From Eledone cirrhosa (Eukaryota), in the NCBI GenBank assembly GCA_964016885.1, contig OZ024759.1, positions 35,216,001-35,280,000 on the forward strand: DNA of 64,000 nucleotides, in the 5' to 3' direction. Below are positions 12,005 through 23,909 of this stretch, piece after piece. The notes under the pieces were generated by a model, which was not told the DNA's origin, did no database searches, and saw only the letters and a program-made list of their open reading frames with translations. Made by a program: the position numbers and the translations under genes. Position 1 is the stretch's first letter. Every line of letters starts with the position of its first letter.

Positions 12005-12390
12005 AAAGGGAGGTAACTCTGTAATATTTTGAGATGATTTACCTCCCTTTGAAACACCTTCGTCACCGTCGTTACCACCGTCGGCACCTTCGTAACCGTC
12101 GTCACCTTTACCGCCGCCACCTGGTGGCGGAGGAAAAGATACCGACGAAGACGGTGGTGCACCGTCGTCTTCGTCGGTTTCTTTACCGCCGCCACCTGGT
12201 GGCGGAGTAAAAGATACCGACGAAGACGACGGTGCACCACCGTCTTCGTCGGTATCTTTTCCTCCGCCACCAGGTGGCGGCGGTAAAGGTGACGACGGTT
12301 ACGAAGGTGCCGACGGTGGTAACGACGGTGACGAAGGTGTTTCAAAGGGAGGTAAATCATCTCAAAATATTACAGAGTTACCTCCCTTTA
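12005..12390. other. GC-rich multi-hairpin core of palindrome 1, axis at 12197
   Basis: 9-mer CACCGTCGT-like repeats, then hairpins CCGCCACC-T-GGTGGCGG and ACCGACGAAGACG-N12-CGTCTTCGTCGGT alternating with 75-bp period. Confidence 0.9.
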
Positions 12391-13585
12391 ATAAAAAAAA
12401 AATTAAAAAGAGGGGGATCTTATTTTTTTTTTCGATAATTTTAAAAACATTCTTAGTTTCTTTATTTAGAAACTTCATTATTCTCAGTTTCTTTCAAGAA
12501 ACTTTATCTCCCTCTTAGTTTCTTTATTTAGAAACTTCTTCATTCTCAGTTTCTTACAAGAAACTTTATTTAACTCTTAGTTTCTTTATTTAGAAACTTC
12601 ATAAACACTTACGTTCTTTATATCACGTCTTACCCCGTTTCTTCTAGACTCTTGATTTCTTTATTCATTTTTGTCAAAATAAACTGAACACAACTCGTAT
12701 ATAAGATCTAAACATTCTTTATTCATTTTTGTCAAAATAAACAGAATACAATTCGTATATAATGTGTAAACTTTCTTTATTAAAAGATGTGTGTGTGTGT
12801 GTATAGCGATTAGTTTTCTCGTATATTTATTAAAAGAAACTACGACATTCCCACTTGTTACGGCAAACAACAAAGCATATGATCTTGATGGCTGGACATC
12901 TGTAAAAAGAAATGAGAGTCATTTACATACATTATCAATAAAAAGAATATTAAACTAAAAATGTATATTAAGTGTGTGCGTGTCAAAAAAGAAAGAAACT
13001 AAGAATGTAAATGGTTCTATGTTATGTAGACGGGTGAAATATTCACTCTAACCAAAGACAACAGTTCTCAAAAGATTCTGGTTAATATTAATAACCAGAA
13101 TATAGCAGGACCAAAGGAGATTCTACGATGGTAAAGTAACTATCAGAATCAAGCACAAGTCCTTCAGAAGGTTGCTACACACGAGAATCGAACTCATGAT
13201 TGTAAAGCACGACTGCACATCTAGTATGACACTCCAACGACTGACTGGGACATGTTGACAAAGAGAAAGTCCTCCAACACGAGGATATGATGAAGGAAAG
13301 TAGAAGTATATTATTTACCAACTGTATATATAAGTGTGTGTGTGTCTGTGTGTTTATATATATATGTGTGTGTCTGTATGTATATATATATGTCTGTGTG
13401 TGTTTATATATATAGCGATGAGTTTTCTCGTATATATATGATATATATGTCTGTGTGCCTGTGTGCGTGTATATATATATATGTCTGTGTGTGTGTGTCT
13501 GTGTGTGTATATATATGTCTGTGTGTGTGTGTGTATATATAGCGATGAGTTTTCTCGTATATATATATATATATGTCTGTGTGTG

Positions 13586-13622
<37 letters not shown>

Positions 13623-13715
13623 GTATATATATATATGTGTGTGTGTCTGTGAGTGTATATATATGTCTGTGTGTATATATATAGCGATGAGTTGTCTCGT
13701 ATATATATATATGTC

Positions 13716-13782
<67 letters not shown>

Positions 13783-20577: not shown

Positions 20578-20616
<39 letters not shown>

Positions 20617-21321
20617 AATATCTATATATATATATGTAGTTCCATTTGTTAATATATATATATATATATATATATATAGTTTTGTTTAGCTGCTGCCCCA
20701 CCTCCACGTTGTATTTCCAATGTAATGTCACCTCACACATTTCTCGGTCATATCAAATAGAATTTAGCGTATTTCTATATTAAGTTGGCAAATAAGATAA
20801 CATCTCTGTCTGACGATCCACACTTGTTCTATTATTGTCTGAGATCCATTTGGTAATGGAGTAGTTATATTTTGTGTTCTTTGCTTTCATATATATATAT
20901 ACGAGACAACTCATCGCTATATATATATATACACACACACACACAGGCATATATATATATACACACACTCACAGGCATATAAATATATACACACACAGAC
21001 ACATATACACGCACAGACACAGACATATATATACGAGACTCATCGCTATATATATACACACACTCACAGGCATATATATATATACACACACAGACACACA
21101 CACACAGACATATATATATATACGATATAACTCATTGCTATATATATACACACACACACAGGCATATATATATATACACACAGACTTATATATATATACA
21201 CACACAGACATATATATATATACACACAGACTTATATATATATACACACACAGATATATATATATATATACACACACACACAGAGACATATATATATATA
21301 TATACGAGAAAACACACACAG

Positions 21322-21373
<52 letters not shown>

Positions 21374-23909
21374 CACACACACACTTAGGTATACAGTTGG
21401 TAAATAATATACTTCTACTTTCCTTCATCATATCCTCGTGTTGGAGGACTTTCTCTTTGTCAACATGTCCCAGTCAGTCGTTGGAGTGTCATACTAGATG
21501 TGCAGTCGTGCTTTACAATCATGAGTTCGATTCTCATGTGTAGCAACCTTCTGAAGGACTTGTGCTTGATTCTGATAGTTACTTTACCATCGTAGAATCT
21601 CCTTTGGTCCTGCTATATTCTGGTTATTAATATTAACCAGAATCTTTTGAGAACTGTTGTCTTTGGTTAGAGTGAATATTTCACCCGTCTACATAACATA
21701 GAACCATTTACATTCTTAGTTTCTTTCTTTTTTGACACGCACACACTTAATATACATTTTTAGTTTAATATTCTTTTTATTGATAATGTATGTAAATGAC
21801 TCTCATTTCTTTTTACAGATGTCCAGCCATCAAGATCATATGCTTTGTTGTTTGCCGTAACAAGTGGGAATGTCGTAGTTTCTTTTAATAAATATACGAG
21901 AAAACTAATCGCTATACACACACACACACATCTTTTAATAAAGAAAGTTTACACATTATATACGAATTGTATTCTGTTTATTTTGACAAAAATGAATAAA
22001 GAATGTTTAGATCTTATATACGAGTTGTGTTCAGTTTATTTTGACAAAAATGAATAAAGAAATCAAGAGTCTAGAAGAAACGGGGTAAGACGTGATATAA
22101 AGAACGTAAGTGTTTATGAAGTTTCTAAATAAAGAAACTAAGAGTTAAATAAAGTTTCTTGTAAGAAACTGAGAATGAAGAAGTTTCTAAATAAAGAAAC
22201 TAAGAGGGAGATAAAGTTTCTTGAAAGAAACTGAGAATAATGAAGTTTCTAAATAAAGAAACTAAGAATGTTTTTAAAATTATCGAAAAAAAAAATAAGA
22301 TCCCCCTCTTTTTAATTTTTTTTTTATTAAAGGGAGGTAACTCTGTAATATTTTGAGATGATTTACCTCCCTTTGAAACACCTTCGTCACCGTCGTTACC
22401 ACCGTCGGCACCTTCGTAACCGTCGTCACCTTTACCGCCGCCACCTGGTGGCGGAGGAAAAGATACCGACGAAGACGGTGGTGCACCGTCGTCTTCGTCG
22501 GTATCTTTTACTCCGCCACCAGGTGGCGGCGGTAAAGAAACCGACGAAGACGACGGTGCACCACCGTCTTCGTCGGTATCTTTTCCTCCGCCACCAGGTG
22601 GCGGCGGTAAAGGTGACGACGGTTACGAAGGTGCCGACGGTGGTAACGACGGTGACGAAGGTGTTTCAAAGGGAGGTAAATCATCTCAAAATATTACAGA
22701 GTTACCTCCCTTTAATAAAAAAAAAATTAAAAAGAGGGGGATCTTATTTTTTTTTTCGATAATTTTAAAAACATTCTTAGTTTCTTTATTTAGAAACTTC
22801 ATTATTCTCAGTTTCTTTCAAGAAACTTTATCTCCCTCTTAGTTTCTTTATTTAGAAACTTCTTCATTCTCAGTTTCTTACAAGAAACTTTATTTAACTC
22901 TTAGTTTCTTTATTTAGAAACTTCATAAACACTTACGTTCTTTATATCACGTCTTACCCCGTTTCTTCTAGACTCTTGATTTCTTTATTCATTTTTGTCA
23001 AAATAAACTGAACACAACTCGTATATAAGATCTAAACATTCTTTATTCATTTTTGTCAAAATAAACAGAATACAATTCGTATATAATGTGTAAACTTTCT
23101 TTATTAAAAGATGTGTGTGTGTGTGTATAGCGATTAGTTTTCTCGTATATTTATTAAAAGAAACTACGACATTCCCACTTGTTACGGCAAACAACAAAGC
23201 ATATGATCTTGATGGCTGGACATCTGTAAAAAGAAATGAGAGTCATTTACATACATTATCAATAAAAAGAATATTAAACTAAAAATGTATATTAAGTGTG
23301 TGCGTGTCAAAAAAGAAAGAAACTAAGAATGTAAATGGTTCTATGTTATGTAGACGGGTGAAATATTCACTCTAACCAAAGACAACAGTTCTCAAAAGAT
23401 TCTGGTTAATATTAATAACCAGAATATAGCAGGACCAAAGGAGATTCTACGATGGTAAAGTAACTATCAGAATCAAGCACAAGTCCTTCAGAAGGTTGCT
23501 ACACACGAGAATCGAACTCATGATTGTAAAGCACGACTGCACATCTAGTATGACACTCCAACGACTGACTGGGACATGTTGACAAAGAGAAAGTCCTCCA
23601 ACACGAGGATATGATGAAGGAAAGTAGAAGTATATTATTTACCAACTGTATATATAAGTGTGTGTGTGTCTGTGTGTTTATATATATATGTGTGTGTCTG
23701 TATGTATATATATATGTCTGTGTGTGTTTATATATATAGCGATGAGTTTTCTCGTATATATATGATATATATGTCTGTGTGCCTGTGTGCGTGTATATAT
23801 ATATATGTCTGTGTGTGTGTGTCTGTGTGTGTATATATATGTCTGTGTGTGTGTGTGTATATATAGCGATGAGTTTTCTCGTATATATATATATATATGT
23901 CTGTGTGTG

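What the first reader, a model, noticed from the sequence alone, without database searches (positions are those of the whole stretch)
12179..22539. Flip/flop hairpin at the two palindrome centres
Seen: centre 1 (12179-12215) TTCTTTACCGCCGCCACC-T-GGTGGCGGAGTAAAAGAT and centre 2 (22503-22539) ATCTTTTACTCCGCCACC-A-GGTGGCGGCGGTAAAGAA are exact reverse complements. Each folds into an 18-position stem with four mismatches and a 1-nt apex, while the adjoining arms are essentially perfectly symmetric. Known: imperfect terminal hairpins in two inverted-complementary isoforms are the hallmark of parvovirus, poxvirus and ASFV telomeres. Spacer inversion can also arise from arm-to-arm crossover or an inverted duplication of the whole palindrome. 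Inference: the spacer is a copied hairpin end, or an actively invertible segment.
Basis: partly seen in the sequence, partly recalled or inferred. Interest (0 to 1): 0.85.

Follow-up and report, generated by a model that had tools for sequence, protein, structure and literature searches.

The report
Flipped centre in repeated giant palindromes
Two side-by-side copies of a non-coding DNA palindrome several kilobases long, one of 17 such palindrome centres found almost all on one chromosome, carry their 37-base hairpin centre in opposite orientations, most likely because the near-identical arms now and then exchange strands and turn the centre in place, and probably not because the centre is a virus-like chromosome end.

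Summary
The two 37-base centres are exact reverse complements inside a tandem duplicate whose inner 3.7 kb differs at only 2 other bases. A plain inverted duplication is excluded: 99 arm markers pair left arm with left arm.

- The hairpin is one unit of a 75-base two-hairpin array.
- The palindrome is one of 17 centres, 16 of them on one chromosome.
- These belong to a wider non-coding modular repeat family.

Across copies, unit number (2-4) and orientation vary, inner arms are re-symmetrised at each locus, and the unequal outer arms and host flanks are inherited whole. That fits in-place inversion by template switching or arm-to-arm exchange, which is a known process.

A copied viral telomere is unlikely:
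- No Rep, NS1, resolvase or polymerase family was found near the other 15 centres.
- There is no real match to the parvovirus-like or Helitron loci fetched from this genome.
- The turn-round point varies between copies.
- A sister subfamily's hairpin at the matching position keeps one orientation in 25 of 25 scorable copies.

Ongoing flipping is untested, and what mobilises the family is unknown.

The parts
7905..12178 (+). Left arm of palindrome 1 (outer part is host retroelement and SINE debris)
8881..9330 (+). Outer module 'T' of the repeat family (AT-rich hairpin plus CpG-rich 200 bases); copies at 15210-15651 (-), 19178-19628 (+), 25656-26092 (-)
10301..11213 (+). Block that tells left arms from right arms; left-1 = left-2, right-1 = right-2
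11431..12964 (.). Conserved core of palindrome 1 (about 750 bases each side; 58- and 31/62-base repeats), shared by all 17 centres
12008..12047 (+). Small family-wide inverted motif flanking the GC-rich centre (mirror copy on the right arm)
12106..12288 (.). Centre array 1: hairpins H-G-H-G-H, 75-base period, apex bases T,T,A
12179..12215 (+). Central hairpin H in the derived orientation (inferred from sibling loci)
12216..15639 (-). Right arm of palindrome 1, first part
15640..17983 (+).
17984..18227 (-). Right arm of palindrome 1, continuation, ending at the tandem joint with 3-base microhomology (18225-18227)
18225..22502 (+). Left arm of palindrome 2
22430..22612 (.). Centre array 2: H-G-H-G-H, apex bases T,A,A
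22503..22539 (+). Central hairpin H in the orientation shared with sibling locus C20:32.72 Mb
22540..27062 (-). Right arm of palindrome 2
27063..32640 (.). Host-like flank shared (86-94%, reversed) with sibling locus C20:24.85 Mb

Best explanation
The two centres are one hairpin lying in opposite orientations inside a direct tandem duplicate of a non-coding palindrome, and the centre of copy 1 was most likely turned in place by a strand exchange between its near-identical inner arms (replication template switching or arm-to-arm crossover), probably with no dedicated enzyme. Shown: direct duplication; exact inversion confined to the 37 bases; an exchange window of about 970 symmetric bases each side; a family of 17 centres with variable hairpin number and orientation; locus-specific variants copied to both arms. 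Inferred: that cruciform or hairpin formation at the GC-rich array provokes the switches, that the same process changes unit number and swaps cores between loci, and that copy 2 keeps the older orientation. Template switching and crossover cannot be told apart from sequence.
For: Direct versus inverted comparison: 11 substitutions (9 are the flip) against 76 plus 33 gaps. 27 of 68 locus-private substitutions in the inner 520 bases sit on both arms, which needs arm-to-arm copying. Beyond about 1 kb, arms match the same-side arm of a sibling locus better than their own partner, for example 12.05-left and 9.59-right at 99-100% against 90% or no match. Shared units run more than 20 kb with host repeats in one pair and at least 17 kb in another. 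So the palindromes are not rebuilt from one arm at each move. The asymmetric 'loop' is a different stretch in different copies: one H, one G, or several units. One centre has all three H in one direction and two have alternating order. Three of four sibling groups hold both orientations of some unit. A short-armed sister hairpin keeps one orientation in 25 of 25 scorable loci. Homogenisation plus spacer inversion by template switching is documented (PMC8604942, passages).
Against: The documented yeast cases have arms of 10-16 bases and spacers of 2-5 bases, so a switch across kilobase arms is an extrapolation. Only the window pair is an exact flip. The other same-length sibling pairs within groups A and B differ at 14-25 of 256 centre bases as they lie and at 10-25 when turned, so they show turnover rather than clean single inversions. 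In the outer arms (8670-10300), 8 events pair left-1 with right-2 and 7 pair each arm with its partner, so the duplication history is a patchwork and is not fully explained. All 17 GC-rich arrays sit at a head-to-head junction and none was found as a lone arm end, as a replicated hairpin end would also give. The 25 sister loci are related copies, not independent trials. 41 of 68 private substitutions are on one arm only.
Confidence: 0.72

Rival explanations
1. The array is the hairpin end or origin of a non-autonomous element copied by fold-back (rolling-hairpin) replication. The isomers would arise during extrachromosomal copying, with a Rep-type enzyme supplied in trans, before insertion.
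For: Imperfect, nested hairpins at the axis of every one of 17 palindromes. 14 of 17 apex strings fit one turn-round in a tandem array. A hairpin occupies the matching position in other subfamilies. The genome holds Helitron and parvovirus-like genes that could act in trans.
Against: Unequal outer arms and host flanks move with the core. Snap-back copying of the whole palindrome predicts left-1 = right-2, and 0 of 111 events in the inner marker block fit this. The sister hairpin is fixed in 25 of 25. No Rep, NS1, polymerase or resolvase family was found among the 111 of 259 frames tested. No match of the core, centre or coding-like remnant to 10 Helitron loci, and only a 34-base core-arm match to 20 parvovirus-like stretches.
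Confidence: 0.12
2. The assembled orientation of one centre relative to its arm markers is wrong, through a read strand-switch at the palindrome or consensus mixing among four near-identical arms.
For: Short-read contigs cannot phase the centre to markers 1 kb away. The marker pattern in the outer arms is a patchwork.
Against: The centre and the tandem joint are present in independent contigs. Contig depth per assembled copy is about 5-6 at the centre, as at seven other places (rough, counted on 15 loci plus the window). Variable orientation recurs at other loci.
Confidence: 0.07
3. A site-specific recombinase inverts the segment as a programmed switch, using the small conserved inverted motif or the hairpins as sites.
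For: A family-wide inverted motif of about 13 bases with a spacer of about 11 bases flanks the centre.
Against: Inversion limits differ between copies. No recombinase family was found near the centres. There is no gene in the arms to be switched.
Confidence: 0.04
4. One inverted duplication of the whole palindrome, later overwritten by conversion between the two copies on both sides of the centre but not at the centre.
For: 8 outer-arm events pair left-1 with right-2.
Against: It needs two long conversion tracts that each stop within the symmetric inner kilobase. 99 inner events pair left with left, and the tandem joint reads as a direct duplication with microhomology.
Confidence: 0.05

Closest known systems
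Inverted-repeat arm homogenisation and spacer inversion by polymerase template switching (PMC8604942; passages seen)
   Same: Exact reversal of the asymmetric centre, arms made identical, recurrent and reversible across related copies.
   Different: There the arms are 10-16 bases and the spacers 2-5 bases in genes. Here the arms are kilobases and the centre is an array of two alternating hairpins whose number also changes.
Long chromosomal palindromes kept alike by arm-to-arm conversion and prone to cruciform breakage (human Y palindromes, PATRRs; PMC7999016, PMC8701086; passages seen)
   Same: Near-identical arms, an unstable centre and signs of exchange between loci (one copy has arms of two lineages joined at the core).
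   Different: A dispersed, chromosome-restricted family with a shared GC-rich core and no genes in the arms.
Poxvirus flip/flop hairpin telomeres and concatemer junctions (PMC8956199; passages seen); parvovirus and ASFV ends (recalled)
   Same: An imperfect hairpin in two inverted-complementary forms at a head-to-head junction.
   Different: GC-rich, not AT-rich; internal to a chromosome; variable turn-round point; unequal arms with host repeats; no viral genes nearby.
Foldback-type and Helentron-derived non-autonomous elements with internal tandem arrays (search listings and recall)
   Same: Non-coding, modular, inverted outer modules, internal 31/32-base arrays, captured host fragments.
   Different: No termini, target duplication or transposase partner could be defined here, so membership is not shown.
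Core duplicons of primate segmental duplications (search listing only)
   Same: A shared core around which 15-25 kb units are duplicated along one chromosome.
   Different: The core is non-coding. Sister subfamilies without the long palindrome are also chromosome-restricted, so the palindrome is not needed for spread.

Membership tests
Poxvirus/ASFV-type hairpin telomere | Imperfect hairpin in two inverted-complementary forms | tested here: met
Poxvirus/ASFV-type hairpin telomere | AT-rich hairpin (PMC8956199) | tested here: not met
   The 37-base unit and its array are GC-rich
Poxvirus/ASFV-type hairpin telomere | Adjoins a viral genome with a resolvase or polymerase | tested here: not met
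   23 of 111 frames tested had Pfam hits, all retroelement, mariner, DUF7041 or a repeat match; 148 low-complexity frames were dropped; 2 of 8 window frames tested hit reverse transcriptase and the rest nothing
Parvovirus terminal hairpin | Lies at the end of an NS1/capsid cassette or is homologous to such ends | tested here: not met
   29 NS1-like matches from 55 candidates, none on C20; in 20 stretches fetched no match to H, G, the 58-base core module or the coding-like remnant, only weak AT-rich hits to T and one 34-base hit to the core arm
Parvovirus terminal hairpin | Constant hairpin with isomers at about 1:1 in free genomes | not testable with these tools
   No long reads or extrachromosomal data; the turn-round unit varies among 17 copies
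Spacer inversion between inverted repeats | Exact reverse complement of the spacer with unchanged arms and flanks in direct register | tested here: met
Spacer inversion between inverted repeats | Arm homogenisation | tested here: met
   27 of 68 private substitutions on both arms; inner arms closest to their partner in most loci
Spacer inversion between inverted repeats | Both orientations segregating at one locus | not testable with these tools
   Only short-read contigs and reduced-representation reads were served
Helitron/Helentron derivative | Ends or interior shared with a RepHel element | tested here: inconclusive
   No match in 10 loci, but these are 10 of 3704 candidates
Foldback/TIR transposon | Defined termini with a target-site duplication and a matching transposase | tested here: inconclusive
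   The outer module occurs in inverted pairs at several loci, but homology frays outward and no target duplication was identified
Replitron | Short direct terminal repeats and a Rep gene (PMC10288648, passages) | tested here: inconclusive
   No Rep family near the centres; termini undefined
Site-specific invertible switch | Fixed inversion limits and a linked recombinase | tested here: not met

The most novel reading that the evidence does not exclude
The expandable H/G hairpin array is the working origin or end of a non-autonomous hairpin-replicating element that borrows a Rep-type enzyme from resident Helitrons or parvovirus-like elements, carries 15-25 kb of neighbouring DNA along one chromosome and leaves flip/flop isomers as a footprint: an animal transposon using viral-telomere chemistry.
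Probability: 0.1. Interest if true: 0.78.

Novelty: new variant of a known kind. Interest (0 to 1): 0.33.

Why it matters
On the best reading the flip is a known by-product of palindromes, so the mechanism is no surprise. What has some value is the natural series: 17 related kilobase palindromes whose centres record homogenisation, inversion, unit gain and loss and exchange between loci, with a short-armed sister hairpin as a built-in control. That makes rates of centre inversion in a long animal palindrome measurable with long reads. Long perfect palindromes are usually unstable, so a family that keeps them and spreads along one chromosome deserves curation. If the hairpin were a working replication end it would be a new kind of mobile element, but the evidence here leans against that.

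Tried and rejected
- Rfam on 7000-29000: 72 matches, all below gathering scores and on hairpins or microsatellites; rejected.
- Coding remnant: stretches inside relatives read like a decayed gene (OB-fold-like by eye, a recalled pattern). Pfam gave nothing real. A genome search found only two decayed copies. A search of 1.84 billion proteins gave one hit to a repeat-rich protein, judged spurious. The remnant stays unidentified.
- No autonomous parent in the other relatives fetched.
- Helitron link: none in 10 loci. Parvovirus link: none in 20 stretches; a shared protein fragment looked like a hAT-type transposase by eye, with no Pfam hit.
- False duplication of two alleles: a joint-bridging contig and even depth per copy argue against it, but roughly.
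- Expression: no RNA holder listed.
- Terminon-like ends: the passages read describe hammerhead and telomeric-repeat ends, not this layout.
- Literature: eight searches listed no paper that describes this family. I saw listings only, subscription papers and repeat databases were not searchable, and no supplements were read. The organism terms I used (octopus, cephalopod) were a guess from the repeat landscape, not a result. One paper on centre-break rearrangement was not held.
- Earlier scan notes: none for this genome or sequence.

Full report
Observation. The two 37-base centres are exact reverse complements with mismatches at pairs 9, 11, 12 and 18. The window holds two palindromes in tandem: left arm 1 (7905-12178), centre 1, right arm 1 (12216-15639, then a reverse-transcriptase element at 15640-17983 with a 7-base target duplication, then 17984-18227), a joint with 3-base microhomology, left arm 2, centre 2 and right arm 2 to 27062. 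Each centre is an array of hairpin H and a second hairpin G with a 75-base period, H-G-H-G-H. Contigs from two runs of one sample span 12149-12245 without a difference. One contig from another sample of the same study bridges the joint (18155-18500, 4 differences). These confirm the sequence, but not the phase of the centre against markers 1 kb away.

Direct or inverted duplicate. In a four-arm alignment, 99 of 111 events in 10301-11213 pair left-1 with left-2 and none pair left-1 with right-2. Many of the 99 belong to one microsatellite block, so they are not independent. Over the inner 3.7 kb the copies differ by 11 substitutions read directly (9 are the flip) and by 76 plus 33 gaps read inverted. 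So the centre was turned relative to its arms, somewhere within about 970 symmetric bases on each side. In the outer arms (8670-10300) the 60 events are mixed: 8 pair left-1 with right-2, 7 pair each arm with its partner, and most are private. This patchwork is not fully explained.

The family. A DNA search and an exact 23-base pattern found 17 centres, 16 on contig C20 (9-35 Mb) and 1 on C19; the reversed-pattern control found 0. All share a core of about 750 bases each side and are palindromes with arms from a few hundred bases to several kilobases. One centre has 2 H units, seven have 3 and nine have 4. The apex orders are TA, TTA, TAA, TTT, TTTA, TTAA, TAAA and TATA, and the asymmetric part is a different stretch in different copies. 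In the inner 520 bases, 27 of 68 locus-private substitutions lie on both arms. Beyond about 1 kb, arms match the same-side arm of a sibling locus. Shared units run more than 20 kb in one pair and at least 17 kb in another, with host repeats. One copy joins arms of two lineages at the core.

Orientation among siblings. With outer arms as the compass, three of four sibling groups contain both orientations of some unit, and the fourth pair is alike. Only the window pair is an exact flip. The sibling at 32.72 Mb differs from copy 2 at 3 bases and from copy 1 at 12 (3 when turned), so copy 1 is likely the derived one. Other same-length sibling pairs within groups A and B differ at 14-25 of 256 bases as they lie and 10-25 when turned.

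Wider relatives. The outer module has 224 candidates genome-wide, 40 scored. Relatives on other contigs are non-coding modular elements, several of 5-7 kb between inverted outer modules, with 31/32-base arrays and a small conserved inverted motif, but without the GC-rich array. A subfamily on C13-C15 has a different imperfect hairpin with 34-base arms at the matching position. It lies in one orientation in 25 of 26 loci examined, and the last lacks the apex. These are related copies, so this is a control of limited independence. A lone-arm relative at C20:28.40 Mb ends in a short CACC-rich stretch where the array would begin, which suggests (inference) that the array grew by fold-back from such an end.

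Viral or transposon machinery. Of 259 frames of 120 residues or more within 10 kb of the 15 other centres, 111 passed a complexity filter and 23 had Pfam hits: reverse transcriptase and its associated finger, endonuclease, mariner, DUF7041 and one repeat match. The genome does hold parvovirus-like NS1 genes (29 matches, none on C20) with their own palindromes. Twenty stretches around them share nothing with H or G and give only weak hits to other modules. Ten of 3704 Helitron candidates were fetched and share no core module. A coding-like remnant in relatives could not be identified.

Mechanism. Homogenised arms plus an exactly reversed spacer is the signature of template switching between inverted repeats (PMC8604942, passages); arm-to-arm crossover gives the same product. 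Long palindromes form cruciforms that host nucleases cut, and arms are kept alike by conversion (PMC8701086 and PMC7999016, passages). I put in-place inversion at 0.72. Poxvirus flip/flop ends come from resolvase cutting of concatemer junctions at AT-rich hairpins (PMC8956199, passages). The junction here looks like one in outline but fails the tests on composition, gene context and constancy, so I put hairpin replication at 0.12. Assembly error is 0.07, an overwritten inverted duplication 0.05 and a programmed switch 0.04.

Novelty. The flip is a known kind of event. The family, a mostly single-chromosome set of kilobase palindromes with an expandable two-hairpin centre, was not in the listings of eight literature searches, which do not cover repeat databases or most subscription papers. 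PMC6431247 (passages and section 9) and PMC10288648 (passages) were read for comparison with Terminons, Helitrons and Replitrons, and none fits on tested features. Earlier scan notes on other genomes reached the same reading for similar flips; they are unchecked and are not counted as support.

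Noticed in passing
L236-L237, L239, L243-L245 (C12, C25, C998, C10, C14): Endogenous parvovirus-like elements with NS1-domain frames and, at several, phospholipase-A2-domain frames. Some sit in or beside near-perfect palindromes of 1.4-3.1 kb or 2-kb inverted repeats, and one has an imperfect terminal-type hairpin. They are unrelated in sequence to the element studied.
   Followed up: partly
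C20:3.5-5.2 Mb, C27:13-15.5 Mb, C19:35-40 Mb, C16:0.5-0.8 Mb (L124-L147): Helitron RepHel copies with near-equal scores, many with the same 362-residue frame. On C20 they are all on one strand at spacings of mostly 100-130 kb, which suggests giant tandem units.
   Followed up: no
L164-L188 (C13, C14, C15): Sister subfamily with a 105-base imperfect hairpin in fixed orientation; again each subgroup is largely confined to one chromosome.
   Followed up: yes
L059-L060 (C12:47.08-47.09 Mb): Another family member forms a palindrome of more than 12 kb (95%) centred in inverted tandem arrays, without the GC-rich centre.
   Followed up: partly
L046-L047 (C20:32.72 Mb): Chimeric copy: left arm of the window's lineage, right arm of another lineage, joined at the core.
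   Followed up: partly
L067:2490-2800, L071, L076: Decayed coding-like stretch shared by relatives, OB-fold-like by eye; unidentified.
   Followed up: partly
window 2001-2623: A separate 623-base palindrome (98%) directly beside a 28-base tandem array at 2631-4943.
   Followed up: no
window 10006-10283 and its three copies: A 280-base imperfect inverted repeat inside each arm, also present at an unrelated locus; probably a host repeat pair captured before the duplication.
   Followed up: partly
window 12096-12518: The GC-rich centre has a three-base period and open frames on both strands that read as a Pro/Gly/Asp-rich 25-residue repeat, with no start codon seen; probably a by-product of symmetry.
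   Followed up: no
window 30240-31943, 33643-36235, 46668-46867: Tandem arrays (25/39/64-base and 28-base units) near the end of the flank shared with C20:24.85 Mb; sibling units elsewhere also end at arrays. A 200-N gap lies at 46668-46867.
   Followed up: no
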